DNA of 64,000 nt from Escherichia coli (GTDB lineage: Bacteria > Pseudomonadota > Gammaproteobacteria > Enterobacterales > Enterobacteriaceae). Both the position numbers and the translations under genes were made by a program. This document shows, piece after piece, positions 11,157 through 63,525 of this stretch (position 1 is its first letter; every line of letters begins with the position of its first letter). The notes below the pieces were generated by a model. That model was given only the letters and a program-made list of their open reading frames with translations, searched no databases and was not told where the DNA came from. The stretch lies in NCBI GenBank assembly GCA_025336685.1, contig GCA_025336685.1_4717.1; one strand, written 5' to 3'.

Positions 11157-11684
11157 TTATCCTGGATAAATAGTGATGATATCACCAATGACCGTTGTGG
11201 CACCGGCGTAAAGATGAGCCGGAGATACATCGTGTTGGTTTGTCACGGTAAGATCCAATCGACCACGCCAAACCATGGAGGTATTCGCGATGGGGATAGA
11301 AATCTTTTTGGATATATCGTCACGAAAATCAATAACAGTGGCAAGGGTAACTGTATCAAAGTCAACGTCGGGGTCAAAGACGAACCCGTATTGATCTGAA
11401 ATCGCCCGAATAATCGCGTGTATAGTTGTTGTCTTAACAGACTCTAAAACGATTTTTATTGGTATTCCTAGAAATGCCTTCGCAATATCGCGTCGAGCGT
11501 AAACGATAAAACTTTCACCGTTCCACCTTGTTCCTTCATTTGCTGTGACGATCACTTTTGCCCTGTTAGCACCAGAACTTCCATCCAAGACTAATGTAAG
11601 ATCGGAGCTGTTGAATACGCTACTGTTACGTCTGTTTATCAACGACGTCAGTTCGTCTTTCCATGGCGGGTAAAGTGAACACAT
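11157..11684 (-). CDS. free-standing anchor-domain protein (about 175 aa) upstream of the long fibre
   Basis: Paralog of the N-terminal domain of the 870/590/503-aa proteins (YARRDIAKAFLGIPIKI); start MCSLYPPWKDEL with GGAGGAGGG SD. Confidence 0.5.
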   Translation of the reverse strand: MCSLYPPWKDELTSLINRRNSSVFNSSDLTLVLDGSSGANRAKVIVTANEGTRWNGESFIVYARRDIAKAFLGIPIKIVLESVKTTTIHAIIRAISDQYGFVFDPDVDFDTVTLATVIDFRDDISKKISIPIANTSMVWRGRLDLTVTNQHDVSPAHLYAGATTVIGDIITIYPG

Positions 11685-11797
11685 ATGTGCACCCTCCTCC
11701 AACATAACCAGATTAAATATATATTTCTTAAACGTGGGACACGATTCGAGATAAACGTTAACGGTCTTAACGACCGCATAAAATTCCGCGCATATTA

Positions 11798-11829
11798 CCC
11801 CTCTATCCCGACAAAGCGAGATAGAGGGG
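11798..11829 (-). terminator. intrinsic terminator hairpin (10-bp stem)
   Basis: CCCCTCTATC/GATAGAGGGG perfect stem with 12-nt loop, 12 nt downstream of the 590-aa gene stop. Confidence 0.6.
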
Positions 11830-11841
11830 AGGATAATACGA

Positions 11842-19960: not shown

Positions 19961-20014
19961 GGTGATTTCCTTCTTTATTAGGATGATTACATTTAGTCAG
20001 TTTAACAGCATAAA

Positions 20015-20039
20015 CCCTTCCTGCTTTACGCAGGAAGGG
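20015..20039 (-). terminator. intrinsic terminator hairpin
   Basis: CCCTTCCTGC/GCAGGAAGGG perfect 10-bp stem, loop TTTAC, followed on the minus strand by UUUAUGCUG. Confidence 0.7.
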
Positions 20040-21511: not shown

Positions 21512-21721
21512 TTATACATAGGAGATTAAACGTTGAATGATTTTTACTTTGCCTTTGCCTGGACCTTTCTTGCGACGATTCAATAGACGGATACGGTTTC
21601 CAATTACGGAATCGCCGTCATAATCAGCACGCAACTGTGGTGGGAGAGCAAGATGTTCGCGATTGACACCCGGGTTGTTATAAAAACGATTGAAACTTAA
21701 AAGATGGTTAGTTGGAATCAT
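21512..21721 (-). CDS. small basic protein with RRKKGPGKGK motif
   Basis: Shares the motif (I/L)xxRxx(K/R)KKGPxKGK with three small ORFs at 39.9-40.4 kb; ORF-track start is TTG, first ATG at 21719-21721. Confidence 0.4.
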   Translation of the reverse strand: MIPTNHLLSFNRFYNNPGVNREHLALPPQLRADYDGDSVIGNRIRLLNRRKKGPGKGKVKIIQRLISYV

Positions 21722-21739
21722 TGTATTGACCTTATTCAA

Positions 21740-22998: not shown

Positions 22999-23015
22999 GT
23001 AATATAGCCGTGAAA
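22999..23015. promoter_or_regulatory. conserved 17-mer GTAATATAGCCGTGAAA, copy 1
   Basis: Exact copy of the 17-mer at 53145-53161; both lie within about 100 nt upstream of a leftward gene; ACTCACGT octamer nearby in both. Confidence 0.35.
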
Positions 23016-24445: not shown

Positions 24446-24859
24446 CTAACCTAATGAATTGTGTTTAAATAATTGGATGTATGGGGTACCGAATAAAGGA
24501 CTGTATGAATGTATTCGGTTCTCCTCTGATTCGTAATACTCGATAGGCCACGATATTGGTTTAGGTAGACGATCTAATGCTTGCAACACAGCGAGTTTAA
24601 CGCTATTACTTTCGATCGGATACGGAAGTACCGTTGACGAACAGAACACACGTGTTCGATGTAAATAAATGAGATGCTGTTGTAGCTTAGACAAACGCCT
24701 ACGCTTGATTAAGAAACTGGCTACGCGACAATCGGGGTGATCGTAGTGATAGCGCATGGTGTCGAAATAAACCTGTTCTCCTTTAACAATGAGGTATTTA
24801 ATCGCGTGTATGAATGAATAACGACGTAGTTCTCCATCAGCCAACATAACACGGATCAT
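24446..24859 (-). CDS. hypothetical protein (137 aa)
   Basis: ORF, no motif. Confidence 0.45.
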   Translation of the reverse strand: MIRVMLADGELRRYSFIHAIKYLIVKGEQVYFDTMRYHYDHPDCRVASFLIKRRRLSKLQQHLIYLHRTRVFCSSTVLPYPIESNSVKLAVLQALDRLPKPISWPIEYYESEENRIHSYSPLFGTPYIQLFKHNSLG

Positions 24860-26850: not shown

Positions 26851-26873
26851 TTTGTTTCCTTTTATCAGCATAA

Positions 26874-26894
26874 ACCCTCCCATACCGGGAGGGT
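26874..26894 (-). terminator. intrinsic terminator hairpin
   Basis: ACCCTCCC/GGGAGGGT stem, 5-nt loop, followed on the minus strand by UUUAUGCUG. Confidence 0.6.
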
Positions 26895-32940: not shown

Positions 32941-32999
32941 ATTGTCGTTTCCTCCATACGAAACCAAAAAATTGTCAAAATGTACATCGGCATAACACC

Positions 33000-33027
33000 C
33001 GTGTCCGCCCGCGATGGGAGGGACACG
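33000..33027 (-). terminator. terminator-like hairpin
   Basis: CGTGTCC...GGACACG outer stem with inner CCC/GGG pairing, between the 210-aa gene and the membrane-protein gene. Confidence 0.45.
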
Positions 33028-33047
33028 AGCAATACGCTTTTATTTCT

Positions 33048-33680: not shown

Positions 33681-33951
33681 TTACACCTGGCGGTACCACG
33701 ATACCGGTACGAATCACAGCAGCAACTTCCTGCATGCCTTTACCCTTCAACGCATATGTTTCATGTACCACATTACGTCGAGTCGTTAATCCAACAAATT
33801 TACATACCACCATGTTGTTTTCTGAAAGATAAGCGGTGTCGAGTTCACCGTGCAACAATTCTTTTTCTTTGGTATCAATGCCTAATAACGCAATTTGATA
33901 AGCAGAAAGTTTCCAATAACGCATGTTATCACCCAAACTGTTAAGAAGCAT
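33631..33951 (-). CDS. hypothetical protein (106 aa)
   Basis: ORF overlapping its neighbours by 50 and 11 nt; start uncertain. Confidence 0.35.
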   Translation of the reverse strand: MLLNSLGDNMRYWKLSAYQIALLGIDTKEKELLHGELDTAYLSENNMVVCKFVGLTTRRNVVHETYALKGKGMQEVAAVIRTGIVVPPGVSDNLDEVLHGTRKATR

Positions 33952-34357
33952 CCTGTTTAATGTTGATGACTATTTCCGTTCGAACCGGATTGGTCAGTAC
34001 GGCCTGCATGCGTTCAAGCATCATTGGGTTATCCGTAACTACCACATCGGCGTAACACATTGGATGACTTTCGAACGCTTCGGTGTCGCTTACTAACAGA
34101 ACACCCATCACATTTACGTATTGCGGTATGCGACCACGAATGCGTTGCCACATGTCTTGAGTAAGGTCTTCGCTTTCTAACGCAACCACGACAACAGGAC
34201 TGATATTTACCGGGAAACGCGGATGTACCGTGCGGCGAAACGTTATCCAGCTTTCGATGTGGGATAATGCAAGTTCGAGAGAACAACATTTTGGAGAAAT
34301 CTGTATGTTTATTTGCTGAATCAATGAAAGGGGGTTTTGTACAGTCTCTTCAGCCAT
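33941..34357 (-). CDS. hypothetical protein (138 aa)
   Basis: ORF, no motif. Confidence 0.4.
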   Translation of the reverse strand: MAEETVQNPLSLIQQINIQISPKCCSLELALSHIESWITFRRTVHPRFPVNISPVVVVALESEDLTQDMWQRIRGRIPQYVNVMGVLLVSDTEAFESHPMCYADVVVTDNPMMLERMQAVLTNPVRTEIVINIKQDAS

Positions 34358-36899: not shown

Positions 36900-37173
36900 G
36901 TTCTTTATCCTTTAATGCGTTTTCTAACCAACGGACATAACTTTCACGATAAATATGAATATGTCTTTTACCGTCGCGAAAGTTAGGGTCAATAAGATGA
37001 ATCGCAGCATGGGTTGAGGTAGCCGCATGCTGCAAATGTTTTCGTGTTAATCGTCCACGTTTTACCCAGCGTTGAATATACCGTGCGTCTGCTGCAAGAC
37101 AGGTATGTTCATCGATGAAAGGCACCAATACCTGAACGATGCTACCGTAATACACCATCGAACTGTTGAACAT
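36892..37173 (-). CDS. hypothetical protein (93 aa)
   Basis: ORF, no motif. Confidence 0.4.
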   Translation of the reverse strand: MFNSSMVYYGSIVQVLVPFIDEHTCLAADARYIQRWVKRGRLTRKHLQHAATSTHAAIHLIDPNFRDGKRHIHIYRESYVRWLENALKDKEHE

Positions 37174-37203
37174 CTGCGTCTCCGTGCAAATGGATGGGGC
37201 GGA

Positions 37204-37512
37204 TTAGTGAAGAATTACTGTTTGCGATCCGTTCTCGTATTCAGCAAGTAACTCGTCGTACCGACGATCAACTGTCTTGATCGCATTATCAATCTCCGAC
37301 ATGTCTGATGCCGTAGATCGTTTCGCTTCCAGTCGATATACTAACGCATCACGCATACCCTCGGCTGCAGCGAGTTCACAGGTTGCTTGATGTTTATTAT
37401 CCGAAAAGACGAAGAACGGTTTGTTTTCTTCATCAGCCAAGAAGTAGTCACGAATCGCAACCAACCTTTCTTCTGGAACCAGTTCACAATTGTTTTCGTT
37501 CATTTTCATCAT
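37204..37512 (-). CDS. hypothetical protein (102 aa)
   Basis: ORF, no motif. Confidence 0.4.
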   Translation of the reverse strand: MMKMNENNCELVPEERLVAIRDYFLADEENKPFFVFSDNKHQATCELAAAEGMRDALVYRLEAKRSTASDMSEIDNAIKTVDRRYDELLAEYENGSQTVILH

Positions 37513-37517
37513 CTCTC

Positions 37518-37844
37518 TTAAAGTTTTAACGTATTGACGCCGCTTATAAAGGCGTTGATTTCATTGTCGATGTTACCGGTTTGTTCGATAATCTTCTCCA
37601 CCATCAATCTTGGTTTGTTGTATGCGATACATACAGCATCGGGACCATTTCCATACATGCTAGCGACGTAAATCCGAAGTTCTTTTAAACGATCGAGTAA
37701 CAACTGTGTGACATCCAGAACTTCTTCTGTGGCGGTCCGTGTGTTACAATCGCGTAACTTATGCTCTAACAGTGACGTCGCGGCATCGAGCATGGATGTG
37801 TATTTACGGTAGTTATAGATATCAATCATGGCTGTCTGATTCAT
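37518..37844 (-). CDS. hypothetical protein (108 aa)
   Basis: ORF, no motif. Confidence 0.4.
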   Translation of the reverse strand: MNQTAMIDIYNYRKYTSMLDAATSLLEHKLRDCNTRTATEEVLDVTQLLLDRLKELRIYVASMYGNGPDAVCIAYNKPRLMVEKIIEQTGNIDNEINAFISGVNTLKL

Positions 37845-37855
37845 ACATACGTTAC

Positions 37856-38515
37856 TTATTTGTCAGGGTCTGGAAAATAGTAATATCGCCAATACAACAT
37901 AGCAATCGCATTTCTTATTCGACGCGCCTCGAAACGACGGCCGAGAAAGGACTTGTAACAAGAATCGCGAACCATAAACAACTCATGGCTCGATATCATC
38001 AGAACCACGATCTCTCTTATATACGAATTGCAGCACTCGATAAACGGATCTGTATCGTACGTATATTTCCTGGCACTACCTATCCCCAACTCTCTATTTA
38101 ACTCACGACAGTTTATCAAAGACTTCGCACAACTGATAAGCCGGACGAAGTCCCGTAAATTGCGGCGAAAGCAAAAATGTCGCCAGGTTCTTAGTGCGTT
38201 ATGTAGCGGACCTAGGATATCTATTCCGATTTTTACAATGTCCGCATCTTTCTTTAATACTTTTTTGTAATACTTCCTATCGTTCGATAATCCATTAAAC
38301 TCATAATTACAATTATATAGCTTATTCGTGCATTCAACCATCTCGTCGATGTATGATAAGAAGTAGTCCACTAATCTAACTGCTTTGTTATCGTCGTACT
38401 GTTCAGTCAGCAGGCGAAGCTGGAGTAGTCGTTTTCGGAAGCGGCGAATACGCCATTGCCACCAAAACCATCGAATATCCCGAATAGGTTTTACTGTCTC
38501 TGTATTAGAGTTCAT
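37856..38515 (-). CDS. hypothetical protein (219 aa), AT-rich block
   Basis: ORF in a lower-GC segment; Trp/Arg-rich N-terminus. Confidence 0.4.
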   Translation of the reverse strand: MNSNTETVKPIRDIRWFWWQWRIRRFRKRLLQLRLLTEQYDDNKAVRLVDYFLSYIDEMVECTNKLYNCNYEFNGLSNDRKYYKKVLKKDADIVKIGIDILGPLHNALRTWRHFCFRRNLRDFVRLISCAKSLINCRELNRELGIGSARKYTYDTDPFIECCNSYIREIVVLMISSHELFMVRDSCYKSFLGRRFEARRIRNAIAMLYWRYYYFPDPDK

Positions 38516-39149
38516 CGTTATTGATACCCTCTATTAGTTGTACCGCAACCTCTCTTTCGGTGTTGTAAAAGAACTTGCGATGGAACCGAACAAGAAGCCT
38601 TTCAAATTTACGTTGCACGATCTTTTTGCGTTCGATATGGCCCAGGGAGAGCAAAGCACCCATGCAACGTACCGCCTGTTCAAGAACTTGTTTCGCGGTA
38701 TCATGATCATCCGGCAACGGTAAATCTTCTTCGTCGTCTTTAGCGATAAGACGTCTAATGATGTTATCGATGCGTATCTCATCGCCGTTAATAAAAGCAC
38801 CTTTCTCCCATTCATCAAACCGTTGATGGATTTGACGTTGTAGGTTGGCCCTATCTTCCGTTAACTCTTTCAACTGGTTTTCTAAGTTGAATACGGTACG
38901 GCGATCTGTTTCAGTGAATCTTTCCGACTCTTTATACCACCAATCATTACGTGCCAGTAAATCGTTGACACGCGATACCATCCGACGACATTCACCAACA
39001 AGTCCATCACCATTCGGTAACTCTGTGCCGAAATAACATTTGTATTTATAACGCGTAACACGGATTAAACGTTTCGCTAGAAAACCTTGTTTTTCCAGTT
39101 TCTTCTTCAGCTGTATGTATTTCTCTTCTTTTGTTTCCATTAATTCCAT
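38505..39149 (-). CDS. hypothetical protein (214 aa), AT-rich block
   Basis: ORF, no motif. Confidence 0.4.
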   Translation of the reverse strand: MELMETKEEKYIQLKKKLEKQGFLAKRLIRVTRYKYKCYFGTELPNGDGLVGECRRMVSRVNDLLARNDWWYKESERFTETDRRTVFNLENQLKELTEDRANLQRQIHQRFDEWEKGAFINGDEIRIDNIIRRLIAKDDEEDLPLPDDHDTAKQVLEQAVRCMGALLSLGHIERKKIVQRKFERLLVRFHRKFFYNTEREVAVQLIEGINNDEL

Positions 39150-39538
39150 GATGTTGTACCTCGTTCAGCAATCAGGAGGGTCGTGGTTGTGCTTTTCACT
39201 AATCTATTAAAGTCTTGATATATCCGCCTGAGGGATGATTTCAAATTGCAATAACGGTTGAAATAAACCTTCAGGTCATCTTTTGTCACCGTCTCCGTAT
39301 TTATTTTCGTAGAAACACCGAGATCGATAAACTCTTTTCTTAATTGGGATAATTCGTCAAGAAGTCGATGATGGCTTAGATAAATAATAGATTTATCGGA
39401 TAACAACTCGCCGGTTATCCGGCTCTGGCGTTCATCGAGATATTGGAGCCGCCATTCAATTCGCTTACGTAATTTATCAAGTAAATCAACAAAAGCGGTA
39501 TAGCTGTTAACGGCTAGGTTAACTTGACTCGCTATCAT
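39140..39538 (-). CDS. hypothetical protein (132 aa), AT-rich block
   Basis: ORF, no motif. Confidence 0.4.
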   Translation of the reverse strand: MIASQVNLAVNSYTAFVDLLDKLRKRIEWRLQYLDERQSRITGELLSDKSIIYLSHHRLLDELSQLRKEFIDLGVSTKINTETVTKDDLKVYFNRYCNLKSSLRRIYQDFNRLVKSTTTTLLIAERGTTSWN

Positions 39539-39885
39539 TCCACATTCTCCGTTATATGCTTTAAACTGTTACGTATACTTCTCAATCGATGGTTAAATCC
39601 GGAACGATAACATTTCCGTTCAAACCGTGCCGCTCGCGATTTATTCGCCTGATGAAGCTGTTCGTTCACCTGCGACGCTATACGTAAACGCCGCAATAAA
39701 GACCTCAGCCGAACGACAACCAACGGCTGTTCTTTTACCTTCTCTAGTTTGAGTAAATCGTCAATACGAAACTTTATTTCGATAATCTGATTCCTGTTTT
39801 TGCGGTACTGATGAATATACCAACATCGACGAAAATAGGCGATGCTAAACATAGGGTAGGTCCTTTTCAACGCCACCTCCAACAA
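39535..39885 (-). CDS. hypothetical protein (116 aa), AT-rich block
   Basis: ORF, basic, no motif. Confidence 0.4.
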   Translation of the reverse strand: MLEVALKRTYPMFSIAYFRRCWYIHQYRKNRNQIIEIKFRIDDLLKLEKVKEQPLVVVRLRSLLRRLRIASQVNEQLHQANKSRAARFERKCYRSGFNHRLRSIRNSLKHITENVE

Positions 39886-40070
39886 TAAAACGGATTAGGT
39901 GCTTTATGGTATTTATAAATACCCACTTTCTTCCGTCTGCCTTTACCCGGTCCTCGTTTAATACGTTTGTTATAAACACGACCCAAATATCGAGTGACGA
40001 TAGATCGGGATAAATACATCGGATCGATATAATCCAGAGTACCCGCTTCTGTTTCTTCGAGACATTGCAT
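39867..40070 (-). CDS. small basic protein with KRGPGKGRRKK motif
   Basis: Paralog of the 21512..21721 product (DYxD...RxxxxKRGPGKGRR). Confidence 0.4.
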   Translation of the reverse strand: MQCLEETEAGTLDYIDPMYLSRSIVTRYLGRVYNKRIKRGPGKGRRKKVGIYKYHKAPNPFYCWRWR

Positions 40071-40096
40071 ACGTAACTCCTCTTTCCTCTAAGAAG

Positions 40097-40300
40097 TCAA
40101 TCCAGCATAAGCCATGGCATCGCTTTCGCGATAGAATCCACCGCAGCATTTGCTATCCTTCGTTCAGTCGTTGGTACCACATGCGCCACGAACCGTTTCC
40201 CTTTATTGCAACCTTTCTTGTGTTTTCCTTTGACCAAACGAACACCAATCATGTCGTTGATAACATGATTTAGTATGTGGCGCTGTAGAGAATTAATCAT
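40097..40300 (-). CDS. small basic protein with HKKGCNKGKR motif
   Basis: Same family; first ATG at 40298-40300 (ORF track starts at GTG 40303). Confidence 0.4.
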   Translation of the reverse strand: MINSLQRHILNHVINDMIGVRLVKGKHKKGCNKGKRFVAHVVPTTERRIANAAVDSIAKAMPWLMLD

Positions 40301-40439
40301 CACTTTTACTCCAGGCAGAGAAGATTCTTGGTTTTAGTTCTATCTGTCCGCATATCCAGGTGTATCTCCATTTACCTTTACGAGGACCTTTCTTATTTTT
40401 AACACCTATCAGAATACGATAAGGGTATGACCAAGCCAT
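40293..40439 (-). CDS. small basic protein (48 aa) with NKKGPRKGKW motif, below the ORF-track cut-off
   Basis: ATG 40437-40439 preceded by AGGAG with 6-nt spacing; stop overlaps the next gene start; same KKGPxKGK motif. Confidence 0.4.
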   Translation of the reverse strand: MAWSYPYRILIGVKNKKGPRKGKWRYTWICGQIELKPRIFSAWSKSDD

Positions 40440-40469
40440 TCTAAACTCCTAAAATAAATCTCGATATTC

Positions 40470-40796
40470 TTAATGCAATTGCTTCTTAAAACCTAATTTA
40501 AGAAGCGTCATTCTCTTGTCGATGGTATCTAAGGCTTCCAGCAAGGATTTACGCTGCTCCTTTGTAAGCATATCGACGCGTAGACGTTCGTTAATTTCTG
40601 CTTTAAGTTGTATAGGAAGGGTTTGTGTAAGTATGCTATCAGCCTCCATCTCGTAACTATTTTTCGGTATGGGTAATGCTTCAGTAACGCCAGTGAGATA
40701 AAAACCGATAATGGTTACTCGTTTATCCATTGCTTCTAACAGTTCAGAACTTACTTCATCCACGATAGTTCTCCGTATTAGGGTGGGCGTACCCAC
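40470..40796 (-). CDS. hypothetical protein (108 aa)
   Basis: ORF immediately upstream of thyA exon 2. Confidence 0.4.
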   Translation of the reverse strand: MGTPTLIRRTIVDEVSSELLEAMDKRVTIIGFYLTGVTEALPIPKNSYEMEADSILTQTLPIQLKAEINERLRVDMLTKEQRKSLLEALDTIDKRMTLLKLGFKKQLH

Positions 40797-40810
40797 CCTC
40801 AGTTGTTAAT

Positions 40811-41107
40811 TTATACCGCCACCTTAGCCTTGATAGCAGGGTGTGATTGATAACCGACGAATACAAAGTCTTCGTAGCGGTAATCCGTAATACTTTCCGG
40901 TTTACGTACGATTGTTAGCTTCGGTAATGGATACGGCTCACGACTAAGTTGCTCTTTAACCTGTTCGAAATGGTTGTGATAGATGTGGCAATCCCCACCC
41001 GTCCACACGAACTCACCAACGTCCATATTCAACTGCTGGGCAAGCATATGCGTTAGCAACGAATATGATGCGATGTTGAATGGAACACCTAAAAATACGT
41101 CAGCACT
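40811..41107 (-). CDS. thyA: thymidylate synthase, exon 2 (C-terminal 98 aa)
   Basis: Begins [15 protein letters not shown] and ends PAIKAKVAV, matching the ThyA C-terminus; joins in frame to exon 1 (...LSCQLYQR|SADVFLG). Confidence 0.85.
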
Positions 41108-42214
41108 CATTCTGTTCAGATAAGGTCGTTAATCTTATCCCGTTAAAATAACAGCTGTAGATTATCTCTACAGTTCGGACTATATCACGATCTCCTTCCC
41201 TGGAGACCCCTCCCGTTTCACACCCACTTGGGCGTTACGCTACTCATCACTATTTTTATTCATCCGTTTAGTGCTTTCGCTAGTCTCTGGGCATTCTTCT
41301 ACAAGTCTGTACGATTCAAATTTGGGATTTTTACTACCTAATCGATAAAGTATCGTTGCCGGAACAACACCTAACTGCCGAGCCGCCTCAGTTAAAGAGA
41401 CATACTGAATTCCGTCGATTTCCACTTTACGTGCTGTAGTGGGAATCTTCCCCTTATTCACTTCGGCAAGACGACGTCGCGTCTCTTCTGTATGGTGTCG
41501 CCCATAGAACGAATTCTTTTCCCCGGTTCGGGTTTTTGCAAACTCTGATATCTTTCGACGAGTTTCTTCGCCAACCTTTACACCTAGGCGTCTAGCCCTA
41601 GACGCCGCGATGTTTTCGGGAGTGCATACTTTTCGCCGAATGAGTTCACGTGTTTCCGGTGTATGTGTTCGACCATACATCCCGTTACGTTCGCCCGGAT
41701 TGCCATGAACAGCGCGCCTTTGTTCAGGCGACATCGAAGCGAATCGATCGTTAACGACTTTAGTTATTTTCTCGATTATGTCATCGCGACGTGGGTTTCT
41801 CGATAAATTATCACCGCCTAAAGCACCTTTCCCGATATTGAGAGATGCTTCTTCCGGGATGCTATCGATATACACCTGCTCTAAAGCGTATGCCTCTTCT
41901 CGGGTACTACATTCATCGATATCCACGGTGATAAATCCACCACGGTTATGGATATCTTGTAATTTAGCGTTGTGGTGAGAACCATTACGCAAAGCCGATC
42001 TGTGCGTAGCTAACCGCTGATTAATGTTCCCGGTGCTACCAACATAGACATCGCCGTCTTGAGTACATAACCGATATACTACTGGTTTTTTCATACTGCC
42101 TCCTTTAAAAGAGAGACAGACTTGTAGAAGGTTAGCAACGGATTAGCCCGTAGGCTTTCCCGTTTTAAGGAGGTTATTCGACGTAGCTCACGCTACGAAG
42201 GCGCAGTTGCGTTT
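41108..42214 (-). mobile_element. group I self-splicing intron (1107 nt) interrupting thyA, carrying a homing endonuclease gene
   Basis: Exon 1 ends in U (CAGCGU), intron ends in G (AAUG) before exon 2; P7 strands CCAGAGACUAG (plus 41279-41289) and GAUAUAGUCC (41177-41186); P9 hairpin CUGUAGA-GAUAA-UCUACAG (41155-41173); P8-like hairpin GGUCUCC...GGAGAUC. Confidence 0.8.
41240..42094 (-). CDS. intron-encoded GIY-YIG homing endonuclease, I-TevI-like
   Basis: N-terminal VYRL...DVYVGST GIY-YIG module with conserved Arg/Glu; repeated NGMYGRTHTPETR / NSFYGRHHTEETR NUMOD3-like motifs; C-terminal HTH; AAAGGAGG SD inside the intron. Confidence 0.8.
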   Translation of the reverse strand: MKKPVVYRLCTQDGDVYVGSTGNINQRLATHRSALRNGSHHNAKLQDIHNRGGFITVDIDECSTREEAYALEQVYIDSIPEEASLNIGKGALGGDNLSRNPRRDDIIEKITKVVNDRFASMSPEQRRAVHGNPGERNGMYGRTHTPETRELIRRKVCTPENIAASRARRLGVKVGEETRRKISEFAKTRTGEKNSFYGRHHTEETRRRLAEVNKGKIPTTARKVEIDGIQYVSLTEAARQLGVVPATILYRLGSKNPKFESYRLVEECPETSESTKRMNKNSDE

Positions 42215-42937
42215 ACGCTGGTAAAGCTGACAGGATAAAGCACGTGTTGGTACGTTATGCGCATTCAACCAAAGTTCTGTTTCACTGCGTCGTACATCAT
42301 CCGTAACCCACTGGGTTCTTAATACGTCGTTGCGCTGGACATAATCAACGCGTTCATCGAGTGTGAGTTCGTGGGTATAGAACTGATAGAATGAATGGCA
42401 CGGAGCGAGATGCATATCGTCTAAATCACCTACGTTCCATGCGCTAACGATGATCCGTCGAGAATCAGGATCTTCTTTAAGCTGACGCATCACGTTTGCA
42501 ATCTGATCGTGATGTCTAACATACACGAGGTGTTTTAGCATACCGTCATTAAGAATGCCGAAATATTCATAGCCGCGTTGCATCAACTCACGAGTACGTT
42601 CTGTATCGTGCGGAACAACCACTTTATAGTCGATCCATTCCCGCCATTGTTTGCCGTAAATCGGTCCTAGATTCCCTTCTTCGTCAGCCCATTCATTCCA
42701 GATACGAACACCGTTATCTTGAAGATAAGCAACGTTTGTGTCGCCGTTAAGAAACCAGAGCAGTTCGTGGATAACGCTCTTAAGGTGAATCTTCTTGGTG
42801 GTTACCAGCGGAAATCCTTTCTTCAAGTCAAAACGCATCTGACGTCCGAATACGGAACGGGTCCCGGTCCCCGTGCGGTCGGCTTTATCGCGACCGTTAT
42901 CCATGATGTCTTGCAAAAGGTCCAAATACTGTTTCAT
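42215..42937 (-). CDS. thyA: thymidylate synthase, exon 1 (N-terminal 241 aa)
   Basis: [12 protein letters not shown]...DRTGTGT...[12 protein letters not shown]...[23 protein letters not shown]...LSCQLYQR: ThyA motifs including the catalytic Cys loop; the ORF-track frame runs on into the intron. Confidence 0.85.
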
Positions 42938-43146
42938 TTTAATCCTCTAAGTGTTTCAAGTAGTTCCTGAAATTTATAACGATATTTAGAATCACTTAAC
43001 GTGTAGCAGCAACCACGTAACACGTTATACGCGTAATCAGCTTGTAAACCACGAACCTTCGGATCCAATGATAGATTCAATGACGCGTCATCAAAAATCC
43101 ACGCTTCAATGTTCTTCTTAGATTCCTTCGTTAACATCGTTTTCAC
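42934..43146 (-). CDS. hypothetical protein (70 aa)
   Basis: ORF overlapping the thyA start by 4 nt. Confidence 0.35.
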
Positions 43147-43268
43147 CTCGTCGTAAAAGTAAATAGAGTTTTGTCGAGACGCCCTAATTACTTACAACGT
43201 AGGTTCTCCTGGCTTCAGAGAATTCTTAAAATCCGTTAGTTTTGATAGATAGGATAAGACGGCATAAA

Positions 43269-43289
43269 AGCCTCCCATTACGGGAGGCT
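43269..43289 (-). terminator. intrinsic terminator hairpin
   Basis: AGCCTCCC/GGGAGGCT 8-bp stem, loop ATTAC, followed on the minus strand by UUUUAUGCCG. Confidence 0.65.
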
Positions 43290-44844: not shown

Positions 44845-44866
44845 GTTAACCTCAATACGAACATAA

Positions 44867-44898
44867 CCCTCCTCCTTCCCTGATGGGTTGGAGGAGGG
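44867..44898 (-). terminator. intrinsic terminator hairpin, loop-inverted copy of the 1122-1153 element
   Basis: Same 9-bp CCCTCCTCC/GGAGGAGGG stem and flanks (cataa ... aatatgct) as 1122-1153, but the 14-nt loop is the reverse complement. Confidence 0.6.
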
Positions 44899-44907
44899 AA
44901 TATGCTA

Positions 44908-46947: not shown

Positions 46948-47540
46948 CGTATACCCTCCTTTTCCTTATCGTAATTACTACACATATTGACAAACGCAGT
47001 ATTATCAGACAGCATGCTAACCATCTGACGGATTGCGTCCAACGGTTCAAGTTTAGGATTGATTGATTCACCGGTCAACGCGCTTATTGCTCGTGTGATC
47101 TCAGCCAAATCAACGTTCGGGTCTTTATCATCAATGATGAGCAGACTCTTCGCTGGTTTCTGACGACGTTTGATGATTAACAAATACGTGACAAGGTTCT
47201 CACGCCAAGCGTCAGAATCCAGATTGCGTATTACGGTTAACGCGCGACGCTCTTCCGCCCATGATGGTTTCTCACGGATAACGGGCATGTAAGATAATTG
47301 CTCAGCAAGCCCTTTCAAACTGACACGGTTGGTGCCACCAGGATGCTCACTAATCCGCAACATCTCGGTTAACAGACGGACATATGCGGTTGTTGTAGAA
47401 ACACCCCGCAGCGGCAGGAACAAATTATGTCCCGGAACCCCATCATGACTCAGCGGTGCGATATACGCCATGAATTGACGGATATCGTCATCGGTCTGTT
47501 CTCCAGCAACGAACTTAAACGCTTCACGTAGAACGCTCAC
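46944..47540 (-). CDS. hypothetical protein (198 aa)
   Basis: ORF, no motif. Confidence 0.4.
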   Translation of the reverse strand: MSVLREAFKFVAGEQTDDDIRQFMAYIAPLSHDGVPGHNLFLPLRGVSTTTAYVRLLTEMLRISEHPGGTNRVSLKGLAEQLSYMPVIREKPSWAEERRALTVIRNLDSDAWRENLVTYLLIIKRRQKPAKSLLIIDDKDPNVDLAEITRAISALTGESINPKLEPLDAIRQMVSMLSDNTAFVNMCSNYDKEKEGIR

Positions 47541-47826
47541 TACGAAGTCTCCTTAATGTTTCTTTTATATGCAATCTCTTCGGCAAGTACAGACGTTTGT
47601 ATAGATCAATTAACAGATAACGCATAACAGAAGCGACCACCAGGTATTCACCTTCAGCTTCCGAATAACGTATCATGTTAATTGGGTAATTCAAATAAGA
47701 ATAAGAAAAGAGATCATCGTTGGTAAGGTGATGATCTTCAAGATACTGACGAAACAATTTTGCTAAGGCATCGTACTCCATTCCGTAGTAACACAACGAC
47801 ACCTGTCTTGCAGATAGTCGTTTCAT
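47524..47826 (-). CDS. hypothetical protein (100 aa)
   Basis: ORF, no motif. Confidence 0.4.
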   Translation of the reverse strand: MKRLSARQVSLCYYGMEYDALAKLFRQYLEDHHLTNDDLFSYSYLNYPINMIRYSEAEGEYLVVASVMRYLLIDLYKRLYLPKRLHIKETLRRLRSERST

Positions 47827-51288: not shown

Positions 51289-51314
51289 AGCAGGTACCGG
51301 TAACGCGGCATAAA

Positions 51315-51332
51315 CCCTCCCCGAAGGGAGGG
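51315..51332 (-). terminator. intrinsic terminator hairpin
   Basis: CCCTCCC-CGAA-GGGAGGG followed on the minus strand by UUUAUGCCG. Confidence 0.6.
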
Positions 51333-53144: not shown

Positions 53145-53161
53145 GTAATATAGCCGTGAAA
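53145..53161. promoter_or_regulatory. conserved 17-mer GTAATATAGCCGTGAAA, copy 2, in the divergent intergenic region
   Basis: Identical to 22999-23015; overlapped by a 6-bp hairpin ATTACT-CACGTA-AGTAAT; ACTCACGT octamer at 53135-53142. Confidence 0.35.
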
Positions 53162-55391: not shown

Positions 55392-55419
55392 AAGCTCTGT
55401 CTGATGTCAGACAGAGCTT
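55392..55419 (+). terminator. intrinsic terminator hairpin (13-bp stem)
   Basis: AAGCTCTGTCTGA/TCAGACAGAGCTT perfect stem after the SNF2 stop, followed by TATGCCGTGTTTGTT. Confidence 0.65.
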
Positions 55420-55485
55420 TATGCCGTGTTTGTTACAAAATCGTATGGCGTATATGCGTTGTACTTATTAAATAGGACAGAATAC

Positions 55486-56937: not shown

Positions 56938-56956
56938 AAAAAAATAGTTAGCATAT

Positions 56957-56989
56957 CTTCCTCCCTACCCATAACGGGCGGGGAGGAAG
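56957..56989. terminator. bidirectional terminator between convergent genes
   Basis: CTTCCTCCC/GGGAGGAAG stem with 15-nt loop; A9 run on one side and TTTATG on the other gives a U-tract on both strands. Confidence 0.65.
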
Positions 56990-63068: not shown

Positions 63069-63416
63069 TTAAAACTTTAAAACTTTTTCGATACGATGGT
63101 TGACAAGTTCATTGAACGATTCTTCAACTTGTTCAATAATTTCATCAACGTCGATATCTAATTGTTGGGGTTGGATAACATGCTCTTTCATGGTTTCTAG
63201 CCAGTATTCGGCTTTAACCATAACGTTAGCTACTTGTTCAACCTGACTACGTATGTCGACGATCTGACAGTCAGGATTTTTAATGTCGATGATGTGTCCA
63301 TGATGATTGATAAAACCTAGCTTATTCGTTGCTTTTACTGCATCGCGGGCAAGTTCTTGCAGGATTAAATTATTTACGTAGTTCACTGCTATGGAACGAT
63401 TTTCTTTATCACTCAT
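63069..63416 (-). CDS. hypothetical acidic protein (115 aa)
   Basis: ORF with AGAGGA SD; shares an LQELAR motif with the previous gene. Confidence 0.4.
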   Translation of the reverse strand: MSDKENRSIAVNYVNNLILQELARDAVKATNKLGFINHHGHIIDIKNPDCQIVDIRSQVEQVANVMVKAEYWLETMKEHVIQPQQLDIDVDEIIEQVEESFNELVNHRIEKVLKF

Positions 63417-63496
63417 ACCAGGGATCCTCTTTTTAAGTCTTCACATTCTAGTGTTAAGCAGTTAAAATAAACCGTCCCTTTAATCAGCATAAACAT

Positions 63497-63525
63497 CCTC
63501 CTCCCACCACATGGGTAGGAGGAGG
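63497..63525 (-). terminator. intrinsic terminator hairpin
   Basis: CCTCCTCC/GGAGGAGG 8-bp stem, 13-nt loop, followed on the minus strand by AUGUUUAUGCUG. Confidence 0.6.

What the first reader, a model, noticed from the sequence alone, without database searches (positions are those of the whole stretch)
37518..40796. AT-richer block of about ten small unknown ORFs next to the intron-bearing thyA
By eye GC drops to about 35-40% here (for example 38221-38340 and 39301-39420) against about 48% in flanking genes. The block contains only small ORFs with no recognisable enzymatic motifs, including the KKGPxKGK trio. Composition and content suggest a horizontally acquired or fast-evolving accessory (host-takeover or anti-defence) segment.
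Basis: partly seen in the sequence, partly recalled or inferred. Interest (0 to 1): 0.45.

Follow-up and report, generated by a model that had tools for sequence, protein, structure and literature searches.

The report
Genus-specific small-gene block in Goslar-like phage
The AT-richer stretch is a real but ordinary run of nine small genes of unknown function, mostly for basic proteins, found only in Goslar-like nucleus-forming jumbo phages; it sits in the same place in every relative examined and changes by recombination and gene-sized insertions or deletions, so it is not a recent foreign acquisition.

Summary
The window is a ~92-93% nucleotide relative of E. coli jumbo phage Goslar (Chimalliviridae). 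The block 37518-40796 holds nine minus-strand ORFs of 48-219 aa. GC is 41.2% against 45.6% for the window. That is the lowest stretch of its size in the window and has the most deviant codon usage, but the drop is about 4-5 points, not 10. All nine ORFs show dN/dS below 1. None hits Pfam, PHROGs, NCBIfam, PADLOC or PDB. Homologues were found only on contigs that, where length or context is known, are Goslar-like (~235-250 kb).

The block is syntenic and equally AT-rich (40.5-41.5%) in all 11 relatives examined, so recent horizontal acquisition is not supported. "Fast-evolving accessory" is supported:
- ORF D (39140-39538) is a present/absent cassette.
- ORF B lost its N-terminal module by two independent in-frame deletions.
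- One relative carries an extra HTH gene.
- The window is a recombinant of two lineages.

The KKGPxKGK trio is real and has a fourth paralogue at 21512-21739. AlphaFold places the motif at the tip of a beta-hairpin. Six of nine proteins have pI above 9. Function is untested; nucleic-acid binding or host/phage-process modulation is my inference. Ordinary overall, with modest interest.

The parts
37518..37844 (-). ORF A, 108 aa, acidic (pI 5.3); orthologue of Goslar gp134
   Evidence: It is 90-97% identical in close relatives and 60-66% in L008 and L012. dN/dS is 0.12-0.16. No family hit.
37856..38515 (-). ORF B, long form, 219 aa, basic (pI 9.6, charge +15). It has a variable N-terminal module of about 95 aa and a conserved C-terminal domain of about 110 aa.
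   Evidence: The long form occurs in the window, L007, L008 and L014. Two different in-frame internal deletions give 122-aa (Goslar-type) and 131-aa (L012) short forms. Short alleles have dN/dS 0.16-0.42. Only 4 clusters match among 1.84 billion representative proteins.
38505..39149 (-). ORF C, 214 aa, all-helical; orthologue of Goslar gp135; the most constrained gene of the block
   Evidence: dN/dS is 0.07-0.10. Homologues occur only in Goslar-like phages or contigs. The AF2 single-sequence model has an N-terminal three-helix bundle, mean pLDDT 69. Foldseek and PDB sequence searches gave nothing significant.
39140..39538 (-). ORF D, 132 aa, basic, 39% GC: a present/absent gene cassette
   Evidence: Absent from Goslar, L003-L005 and L008. 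Present in the same slot in L007 and L009-L013 at 75-99% aa identity. The junctions keep the ATGA start/stop overlap with E. dN/dS is 0.22-0.64. No match in 50,697 phage records.
39535..39885 (-). ORF E, 116 aa from TTG (105 aa from the ATG at 39852), very basic (pI 10.9, charge +17); orthologue of Goslar gp136
   Evidence: dN/dS is 0.26-0.41.
39867..40070 (-). ORF F, 67 aa, KRGPGKGR motif; orthologue of Goslar gp137
40097..40303 (-). ORF G, 68 aa (67 aa from the ATG at 40300), KKGCNKGK motif; orthologue of the Goslar CDS with locus tag HOV27_xxxxx (YP_009820823)
   Evidence: The AF2 model built with the family alignment is helix, beta-hairpin, helix, with the motif in the hairpin loop (residues 27-35), pLDDT 83-84 over residues 21-40.
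40293..40439 (-). ORF H, 48 aa, KKGPRKGK motif; orthologue of Goslar gp139
   Evidence: dN/dS is 0.04-0.29.
40470..40796 (-). ORF I, 108 aa from GTG (more likely 97 aa from the GTG at 40763, as annotated in Goslar gp140 and as in L008)
   Evidence: It is 96-97% identical to the Goslar group but only 69-70% to L007. This marks a recombination breakpoint near 40070-40100.
21512..21739 (-). Fourth KKGPxKGK paralogue (J), 75 aa, KKGPGKGK, outside the block
43263..43289 (-). G+C-rich hairpin followed by TTTTATGCC, upstream of gp142-thyA-block: candidate terminator plus TATG-type promoter
   Evidence: Goslar annotates a terminator at the homologous place. The TATG late-promoter motif of the phiKZ non-virion RNA polymerase is described in PMC4666361. 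Its function here is inferred.
32968..33047 (-). Next hairpin plus GTTATGCC unit downstream: inferred end of the ~10-kb transcription unit that contains the block
   Evidence: Inferred.
41095..42230 (-). Insertion that splits thyA: intron with an I-TevI-like GIY-YIG homing endonuclease gene (41240-42094). It adjoins the block but is not part of it.
   Evidence: Absent from Goslar, L003-L005 and L007-L012; present in L013.

Best explanation
The block is a resident, genus-restricted accessory gene cassette of Goslar-like chimalliviruses (nucleus-forming jumbo phages).

Shown:
- It consists of nine tightly packed minus-strand genes, several with overlapping start and stop codons, immediately downstream of thyA.
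- The genes are real and under purifying selection.
- They encode small proteins enriched in Arg, Lys, Leu and Ile and poor in Ala, Gly and Pro. The modelled ones are helical (C) or helix-hairpin-helix (G).
- Three of them, plus one paralogue elsewhere, share an invariant [KR][KR]G[PC]x[KR]G[KR] motif.
- The low GC is an old, stable property of these small lineage-specific genes. It comes from amino-acid composition (GC1, GC2) as well as synonymous usage (GC3). It follows the window-wide rule that short genes are AT-richer.
- The block diversifies within the Goslar-like gene pool by homologous recombination between co-circulating lineages, by gain or loss of whole-gene cassettes at translationally coupled junctions (D; the HTH ORF in L008), and by in-frame deletion of a module (B).

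Inferred:
- The block is probably read as part of one ~10-kb transcription unit (about 43.27 kb to 33.0 kb), because I found no candidate promoter or terminator unit inside it.
- The basic members (B, D, E, F, G, H) most likely act by binding nucleic acid or acidic partner proteins, as dispensable modulators of host or phage processes. In the KKGPxKGK proteins a basic beta-hairpin loop would be the contact element.
For: - Identity of the phage: 92.6% nucleotide identity to Goslar over 65% of the query, with orthologues gp134-gp140.
- Composition. GC correlates with gene length across the window (Spearman 0.48, p=2e-6). The block is 40.5-41.5% GC in all 11 relatives, against 43-46% for their flanks.
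- Coding status: dN/dS 0.03-0.64 for all nine ORFs.
- Restriction to the genus: with genomic contexts.
- No family or PDB hit.
- Variation: D and B states occur in all four combinations. There are two independent in-frame B deletions. L008 has an extra HTH ORF.
- Mosaic origin: B-F are 98-100% aa identical to L007, whereas G-I are 96-100% identical to the Goslar group and I is about 70% to L007.
- Charge: R+K is 18.3% against 11.2%, and 6 of 9 proteins have pI above 9, against 34% of window genes.
- Motif: 4 occurrences where about 1e-3 would be expected from residue frequencies (my estimate). It is kept in all four paralogue types; within F, G and H only minor substitutions occur among orthologues, and synonymous sites differ between paralogues.
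- Structure: the AF2 hairpin model.
- Transcription: no hairpin-TATGC unit and no CACGGCTATATTAC motif inside the block.
Against: - There is no functional evidence of any kind. Nucleic-acid binding rests on charge, composition and a medium-confidence model (pLDDT 72, pTM 0.31).
- A, C and I are acidic or neutral, so one mechanism need not cover all nine genes.
- hhalign does not support homology of F, G and H beyond the 13-17-residue motif (probabilities 4-11%). The 'family' could be convergent.
- The single-operon reading depends on consensus-like motifs whose function in Goslar-like phages has not been shown.
- GC3 is only marginally lower than in other small genes (p=0.07).
- Only 64 kb of this genome and 12-21 kb of each relative were compared.
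Confidence: 0.6

Rival explanations
1. Anti-defence island: some or all of the ORFs inhibit host immune systems. The variable parts (D, the N-terminal module of B, the L008 HTH gene) would reflect an arms race.
For: - The genes are small, lineage-restricted and relatively fast-evolving, with presence/absence and modular variation.
- An HTH gene is inserted in the block in one relative, reminiscent of Aca regulators.
- Chimalliviruses are known to carry additional anti-defence genes (abstract of PMC13309987, listed).
Against: - No similarity to any characterised protein.
- No anti-defence protein library was available.
- C, G, H and I are as constrained as core genes in some comparisons (dN/dS 0.03-0.10 against Goslar), which is not typical of arms-race genes.
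- The HTH ORF is in only one of 12 genomes.
Confidence: 0.2
2. A recently and horizontally acquired foreign segment (genomic island).
For: Lowest GC and most deviant codon usage in the window. A homing-endonuclease-bearing intron lies next to it.
Against: - Same position, order and GC in all 11 relatives, including the ~86% nucleotide outgroup L008.
- Homologues only in Goslar-like phages.
- No flanking repeats or mobility genes were noted. The endonuclease belongs to the thyA intron, which is polymorphic independently of the block.
- Even D, the only gene missing from Goslar, has 73-82% identical alleles in the same slot in other lineages.
Confidence: 0.05
3. Early host-takeover cluster: genes expressed from the injected genome by the virion RNA polymerase, shutting off or redirecting host functions.
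For: - Small basic proteins of unknown function are typical of early takeover genes in large lytic phages (general knowledge).
- 175 of 249 Goslar genes are already expressed at 5 min after infection (PMC10541120), so early expression is likely a priori.
- AT-rich early promoters are reported for phiKZ-like phages (PMC11512511).
Against: - No conserved AT-rich or other promoter-like motif was found inside or immediately upstream of the block.
- The nearest upstream signal is a hairpin plus TATGC. In phiKZ, TATG marks late promoters of the non-virion polymerase.
- The genes are co-oriented with, and downstream of, a nucleotide-metabolism gene.
- The per-gene Goslar RNA-seq table was not available.
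Confidence: 0.12
4. Mostly non-functional DNA: spurious or decaying ORFs in an AT-rich spacer.
For: No homologues with known function. B is shortened in most relatives, and that ORF is unannotated in Goslar.
Against: - All ORFs stay open in 11 relatives, with dN/dS well below 1, including the short B alleles (0.16-0.42) and D (0.22-0.64).
- The indels are in-frame or whole-gene and keep start/stop coupling.
Confidence: 0.03

Closest known systems
Goslar gp134-gp140 (NC_048170, 129024-131585), annotated 'hypothetical protein'
   Same: They are direct orthologues of A, C, E, F, G, H and I, in the same order and position between the DUF4262 gene and thyA, with the same ~41% GC.
   Different: The window also has ORF D (absent in Goslar) and the long 219-aa form of B. 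Goslar has an unannotated 122-aa in-frame-deleted form. The window's thyA carries an intron with a homing endonuclease gene that Goslar lacks.
Variable (accessory) genome region of Chimalliviridae, as defined by Prichard et al. 2023 (PMC10299810); by analogy, the hyperplastic regions of T4-like phages (general knowledge)
   Same: A run of small genes specific to one lineage, lying outside the core gene blocks, with content that varies between relatives.
   Different: I did not map the block onto the published core-block coordinates. Here the block is embedded in a unit with a conserved metabolic gene (thyA) and is stable in position across the genus.
Beta-ribbon 'arm' DNA binders (HU/IHF) and AT-hook peptides
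   Same: The KKGPxKGK proteins are small and basic. They have a Gly/Pro-containing motif flanked by Lys/Arg, which is predicted to sit at the tip of a beta-hairpin. This is a resemblance in principle only.
   Different: There is no RGRP core, so they are not AT-hooks. There is no match to the HU/IHF family or fold. The Pro is replaced by Cys, Tyr or Val in the G subfamily. DNA binding is untested.
Anti-CRISPR/anti-defence loci with an associated HTH (Aca) gene
   Same: Clusters of small, unrelated, fast-changing ORFs. One relative (L008) carries an HTH gene in the block.
   Different: No homology to known anti-defence proteins was detected. The HTH gene is absent from the window and from the 10 other relatives. 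No functional test was possible.

Membership tests
Goslar-like (Goslarvirus) accessory gene block | Lies in a Goslar-like genome at the position of gp134-gp140 | tested here: met
   92.6-93% nucleotide identity and collinearity with NC_048170.
Goslar-like (Goslarvirus) accessory gene block | Genes have no homologues outside the lineage (not core Chimalliviridae genes) | tested here: met
   tblastn against 50,697 phage records finds only Goslar (C) or nothing (D). Searches of 5.8 billion and 1.84 billion proteins return homologues only on contigs that, where length or context is known, are Goslar-like (~235-250 kb) (contexts). A, E and I were not searched individually.
Goslar-like (Goslarvirus) accessory gene block | Gene content varies between close relatives | tested here: met
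   D present or absent, B long or short (two deletion types), an extra HTH ORF in L008.
Horizontally acquired genomic island | Composition deviates from the genome | tested here: met
   41.2% against 45.6% GC, and the most deviant codon usage of 84 gene runs. The deviation is modest.
Horizontally acquired genomic island | Absent from close relatives | tested here: not met
   Present, syntenic and equally AT-rich in all 11 relatives.
Horizontally acquired genomic island | Homologues in an unrelated donor lineage, or flanking mobility signatures | tested here: not met
   No homologue outside Goslar-like phages. The only mobile element nearby is the thyA intron, which varies independently. A dedicated search for flanking repeats was not run.
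Anti-defence (Acr/Aca-like) locus | Similarity to a characterised anti-defence protein | tested here: inconclusive
   No hit in Pfam, PHROGs, NCBIfam or PDB. No dedicated anti-defence library was available. PADLOC covers defence systems, not counter-defence.
Anti-defence (Acr/Aca-like) locus | Conserved associated HTH regulator | tested here: not met
   An HTH ORF is found only in L008 (HTH_23, 25.0 bits against a cut-off of 24.6). There is none in the window.
Anti-defence (Acr/Aca-like) locus | Inhibits a defence system | not testable with these tools
   This needs plating assays on strains that carry defined defence systems.
AT-hook DNA-binding motif | Arg-Gly-Arg-Pro core flanked by basic residues | tested here: not met
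   The motif is [KR][KR]-G-[PCY]-x-K-G-[KR]. No RGRP occurs in any of the 50 aligned members.
HU/IHF-type beta-arm proteins | Bac_DNA_binding fold or family membership | tested here: not met
   No Pfam hit. Foldseek of the G model against the PDB gives no match with E below 0.5. The family profile has no hit against PDB sequences. Only the hairpin with a basic tip is shared.
Early (virion-RNA-polymerase) host-takeover cluster | Own early promoter, and expression in the first minutes of infection | tested here: inconclusive
   No recurring promoter-like motif in or just upstream of the block, but Goslar promoters are not defined.

The most novel reading that the evidence does not exclude
The KKGPxKGK proteins (F, G, H here and J at 21512-21739) would be a previously undescribed family of very small (41-96 aa) proteins, restricted to Goslar-like nucleus-forming phages and kept as four paralogues per genome. 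Their invariant G-x-x-K-G loop at the tip of a beta-hairpin would insert into DNA or RNA. They would act as phage-specific nucleoid- or RNA-associated factors, for example compacting or marking host or phage nucleic acid around the phage nucleus. The neighbouring protein B would carry a swappable N-terminal module that tracks a variable host target.
Probability: 0.15. Interest if true: 0.5.

Novelty: new member of a known kind. Interest (0 to 1): 0.25.

Why it matters
Goslar is the E. coli model for nucleus-forming jumbo phages, and most of its accessory genes have no assigned role. This analysis adds little that is conceptually new, but it gives concrete handles:
- It shows that the low-GC block is native to the genus rather than imported.
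- It identifies which genes are dispensable in nature (D, and the N-terminal module of B) and which are tightly constrained (C, G, H).
- It points out an unannotated but conserved ORF in the Goslar reference genome.
- It defines a four-member family of small basic proteins with a testable contact loop.

These are sensible first targets for knock-down, localisation and binding experiments in a tractable host.

Tried and rejected
- Megablast of the region against complete E. coli genomes and against PLSDB plasmids: no match.
- Scan of GTDB representative genomes with the neighbouring 325-aa protein: no relative.
- Family scans in Pfam, PHROGs, NCBIfam and PADLOC: nothing significant.
- PDB sequence searches for B, C, E and the KKGP profile: nothing significant.
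- Foldseek of the C and G models against the PDB: only generic coiled-coil or small alpha/beta matches, all with E above 0.4.
- Profile-profile comparison (hhalign) of all block genes and neighbours: no paralogy beyond the short motif. The first attempt timed out.
- Weak BLAST similarity of D to the ORF at 24446-24859: a 27-residue match, rejected.
- Possible internal duplication in B: one 27-residue match at E=0.006, not convincing.
- Rfam at gathering threshold and at E up to 1, and ARAGORN: no RNA gene, and the thyA intron itself is not recognised.
Only Goslar had two matching loci. Uninformative.
- My loose hairpin-plus-TATG scan was no better than shuffles overall (32 against 23-38). Only the long-stem TTATGC units seen by eye in intergenic regions are used.
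- Sigma-70-like promoters are under-represented (17 against 27 expected), so they give no information.
- Goslar per-gene RNA-seq supplement: not held.
- Literature search for gp134-gp140 of Goslar: no relevant data. The hits refer to PhiPA3 gene numbers.

Full report
**What the window is.** Megablast of 37000-41200 against 50,697 phage records finds one real relative: Escherichia phage vB_EcoM_Goslar (237 kb, Goslarvirus). The match is 92.6% identical over 65% of the query. All other hits are 35-86-bp matches to the thymidylate synthase (td) gene of T4-like phages. Goslar is a nucleus-forming jumbo phage of the Chimalliviridae (papers listed). The Goslar annotation shows the homologous stretch as gp134-gp140, all 'hypothetical protein', lying between a DUF4262 gene (gp131) and thymidylate synthase (gp141).

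**Checking the observation.**
- The block 37518-40796 has 41.2% GC against 45.6% for the window.
- Among all windows of the same length (mean 45.6%, sd 1.9%) it sits at the 0.25% quantile. The minimum (41.0%) starts at 37501.
The block as a whole is about 41%, not 35-40%, and the flanks are 44-47%, not 48%.
- Using a greedy gene set (93% coverage), block genes have 41.3% GC against 46.0% for the rest. GC1, GC2 and GC3 are each 4.4-5.4 points lower.
- The block has the largest synonymous-codon distance of 84 contiguous gene runs of equal length.
- Its genes are AT-richer than the 59 other small genes (Mann-Whitney p=4e-4). For GC3 alone the difference is marginal (p=0.07).
- Across the window, GC rises with gene length (Spearman 0.48, p=2e-6). 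Other isolated small ORFs are equally low: 42934-43146 at 37.1%, 47524-47826 at 38.6% and 63069-63416 at 36.5%.

It is partly an instance of a genome-wide tendency of small genes.

**Anatomy.** There are nine minus-strand ORFs, not ten:

| ORF | Coordinates | Length |
|---|---|---|
| A | 37518-37844 | 108 aa |
| B | 37856-38515 | 219 aa |
| C | 38505-39149 | 214 aa |
| D | 39140-39538 | 132 aa |
| E | 39535-39885 | 116 aa |
| F | 39867-40070 | 67 aa |
| G | 40097-40303 | 68 aa |
| H | 40293-40439 | 48 aa |
| I | 40470-40796 | 108 aa (probably 97 aa from the GTG at 40763, as in Goslar and L008) |

- Gaps between genes are at most 30 bp, and several starts overlap the preceding stop (B/C, C/D, D/E, G/H).
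- The proteins are enriched in Arg (10.3% against 5.9%), Lys (8.0% against 5.3%), Leu and Ile, and depleted in Ala, Gly and Pro.
- Six of the nine have pI above 9 (B +15, E +17, F +11, G and H +8, D +5), against 34% of window genes.
- None has a significant hit in Pfam, PHROGs, NCBIfam or PADLOC, nor in PDB sequences.
- No RNA family and no tRNA is present.

**Are they genes?** I compared the window with six further Goslar-like contigs: L003 from IMG/VR, and L004, L005, L007 and L008 from metagenomes, plus Goslar itself. I later added L009-L014. Every ORF stays open in every genome that carries it. Pairwise Nei-Gojobori dN/dS is below 1 throughout:
- C: 0.07-0.10
- G and H: 0.03-0.29
- A: 0.12-0.16
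- I: 0.10-0.22
- B, E and F: 0.26-0.53
- D: 0.22-0.64
- Flanking genes gp126, gp131, gp132 and thyA: 0.04-0.12

They are real genes. Several are under weaker constraint than their neighbours.

**Distribution.**
- tblastn of C finds only Goslar, and D finds nothing, among the phage records.
- In 5.8 billion proteins, D has 11 homologues and C has 8, all without names or Pfam domains. Those with a known long contig lie on contigs of about 237-246 kb, or in E. coli assemblies.
- B matches only four 50%-identity clusters among 1.84 billion representatives.
- Contexts retrieved for D and B homologues are all the same Goslar-like neighbourhood.
- This fits the report that Goslar-like phages are known from one isolate plus 59 'persistent' phage genomes in Enterobacteriaceae assemblies (bioRxiv 10.1101/2024.12.31.630880).
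- No match was found in complete E. coli genomes, PLSDB plasmids or GTDB representatives.

**Synteny and variation.** The block is in the same place and order in all 11 relatives. Its GC is 40.5-41.5% in each, against 43-46% for their flanks. Low GC is therefore an old, stable trait, and recent import is not supported. The content does vary, in five ways.

1. *D is a cassette.* It is absent from Goslar, L003-L005 and L008. It is present in the same slot in L007 (99% aa) and in L009-L013 (75-78% aa). The junction keeps the ATGA overlap with E and only rewrites the first few codons of C.
2. *B has long and short forms.* The long form (219-230 aa) occurs in the window, L007, L008 and L014.
   - Goslar, L003-L005, L009-L011 and L013 have a 122-aa form beginning MKLNRTVWDIRSFWYRYWFNRNLRD.
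   - L012 has a 131-aa form beginning MMTNSNTEAQTLAGPSHNVLRTWRHFCFRRNLRD.
   - These are two different in-frame internal deletions of the same N-terminal module of about 95 residues.
   - The short alleles are still constrained (dN/dS 0.16-0.42), yet the ORF is not annotated in the Goslar RefSeq record.
3. *All four combinations of D presence or absence with B long or short exist*, which implies recombination.
4. *L008 has an extra 91-aa ORF* between thyA and I, with a marginal HTH_23 match.
5. *The window itself is mosaic.* B, D, E and F are 99-100% aa identical to L007 with dS about 0, and C is 98% identical with dS about 0.1. G, H and I are 96-100% identical to the Goslar group, and I is only about 70% identical to L007 (dS 0.92). 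This puts a breakpoint near 40070-40100.

Indels of similar size also occur outside the block. [quoted passage not shown]

**The KKGPxKGK proteins.**
- The pattern [KR][KR]G[PC]x[KR]G[KR] occurs four times in the window's ORFs: in F, G and H, and in a fourth small gene at 21512-21739 (J, 75 aa).
- From the residue frequencies I estimate about 1e-3 chance occurrences in a proteome of this size.
- The motif is kept in every orthologue with only minor substitutions, including the divergent L008.
- A profile search recovers 89 proteins of 41-96 aa in the four subfamilies. None has a Pfam domain, and the few that are named come from E. coli, Salmonella and Enterobacter assemblies.
- Synonymous positions differ between paralogues, so the constraint is on the peptide, not the DNA.
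- Only G-x-x-K-G is strictly invariant. The Pro is Cys, Tyr or Val in the G subfamily.
- AlphaFold2 with the 50-sequence family alignment models G as helix (4-18), strand (21-26), loop (27-35, the motif), strand (36-41), helix (44-60). Mean pLDDT is 72, rising to 83-84 over the hairpin; pTM is 0.31.
- Foldseek finds no significant PDB match.
- hhalign does not support homology beyond the motif. 'Family' here means a shared motif in a shared predicted structural position.
- The motif is not an AT-hook (no RGRP core), and these are not HU/IHF proteins. The resemblance to basic beta-arm binders is an analogy only.

**Other structure evidence.** C modelled from a single sequence is all-helical. 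It has a moderately confident N-terminal three-helix bundle (mean pLDDT 69). Foldseek matches only generic coiled coils.

**Transcription (inferred).**
- Many intergenic regions in the window carry a G+C-rich hairpin followed directly by (T)TTATGC. Examples are at 11791-11829, 20009-20039, 26869-26894, 32968-33047, 43263-43289, 44845-44907, 51309-51332 and 63488-63525.
- Goslar annotates a terminator at the homologue of the 43263-43289 hairpin.
- In phiKZ, TATG is the late-promoter motif of the non-virion RNA polymerase, with the G as start site (PMC4666361).
- None of these units lies between 43263 and 33047. Nor does the other recurring intergenic motif, CACGGCTATATTAC, which occurs exactly at 22999 and 53145.
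- I therefore infer that the block is read through from upstream of gp142-thyA as part of a unit of about 10 kb. This needs transcript mapping.
- Sigma-70-like sites are fewer than in shuffles.
- Goslar RNA-seq shows 175 of 249 genes expressed by 5 min after infection (PMC10541120). The per-gene table was not available.

**Explanation and rivals.** The best-supported account is a resident, genus-specific accessory cassette of small proteins, mostly basic.
- Its low GC reflects its protein composition and the general AT bias of short lineage-specific genes.
- It diversifies by recombination, cassette gain and loss, and in-frame module deletion within the Goslar-like gene pool.
- That the basic members bind nucleic acid or acidic partners, and modulate host or phage processes, is my inference.
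- An anti-defence role (about 0.2) and an early host-takeover role (about 0.12) remain open sub-hypotheses.
- Recent horizontal acquisition (about 0.05) and non-coding DNA (about 0.03) are disfavoured by synteny, conserved composition and purifying selection.
- I found no experimental information on Goslar gp134-gp140 in the library.

**Verdict.** This is an ordinary feature of a large lytic phage genome, already present (as hypothetical proteins) in the Goslar reference. It has a few useful details:
- the D cassette;
- the modular deletions of B;
- an unannotated conserved ORF in Goslar;
- a four-member family of small basic hairpin proteins.

Interest is 0.25. I class it as a new member of a known kind.

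Noticed in passing
window 41095-42230 (minus strand), with exons at 42188-42937 and 40811-41110: thyA is split by a 1136-bp insertion that Goslar and 10 of the 11 relatives examined across thyA lack; L013 has a similar one. It encodes a 284-aa GIY-YIG + NUMOD3 + I-TevI-DNA-binding-domain homing endonuclease. The two exons cover Pfam thymidylate synthase positions 1-159 and 169-266. A 35-86-bp stretch at the 3' end of the insertion (41108-41193) matches the td gene region of many T4-like phages at 97% (35 bp) or 79% (86 bp). This suggests an intron related to the T-even td/I-TevI intron, shared between unrelated E. coli phages. Rfam does not recognise it.
   Followed up: partly
window minus strand: 11791-11829, 20009-20039, 26869-26894, 32968-33047, 43263-43289, 44845-44907, 51309-51332, 56952-56986, 63488-63525; plus strand: 55394-55423; strand not determined: 1106-1170: A recurring intergenic unit: a G+C-rich hairpin, often CCTCC/GGAGG-rich, followed directly by (T)TTATGC. 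It looks like a terminator fused to a TATG-type promoter, as described for the phiKZ non-virion RNA polymerase (PMC4666361). My automated scan with loose criteria was not above shuffles; only the long-stem cases are convincing.
   Followed up: partly
window 22999-23012 and 53145-53158 (minus strand): An exact 14-mer, CACGGCTATATTAC, sits within a longer shared context (TTTCACGGCTATATTACYTA) in two intergenic regions upstream of minus-strand genes. It is a candidate promoter of another class. No further exact copies occur in the 64 kb.
   Followed up: partly
L001 6857-7225 (minus strand in the locus) = NC_048170 about 129362-129730: The Goslar RefSeq record leaves a 366-bp gap between gp134 and gp135. 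The gap holds a conserved 122-aa ORF, the short form of B, which is under purifying selection in eight genomes (dN/dS 0.16-0.42). It is probably a missed gene.
   Followed up: yes
L008 4667-4942 (plus strand in the locus), between thyA and ORF I: An extra 91-aa ORF with a C-terminal helix-turn-helix (HTH_23, 25.0 bits against a cut-off of 24.6; also weak Sigma70_r4 and Mor matches). It is present only in this divergent relative.
   Followed up: partly
window about 43205-43210 and 33924-33958 (empty sites): Relatives carry additional genes that the window lacks. One is a ~290-aa DUF7448 protein upstream of thyA (L009-L013; an insertion of about 0.9 kb at the same place in L003, L004, L007 and L008). 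The other is a D12-class adenine methyltransferase gene or fragments downstream of gp125 (L009-L012; about 0.85 kb extra in L005 and L007). The neighbourhood as a whole is an indel hotspot.
   Followed up: partly
window 21512-21739 (minus strand): A fourth KKGPxKGK paralogue (75 aa, KKGPGKGK) lies 18 kb from the trio. In relatives it varies at the N-terminus, with forms of 47, 63, 64, 69, 83 and 96 aa.
   Followed up: yes
window 11231-11841: A 611-bp stretch without an ORF of 45 aa or more, between two large minus-strand genes. It begins (in the coding sense) with a 13-bp-stem hairpin followed by TAATATGC. I did not examine it further.
   Followed up: no
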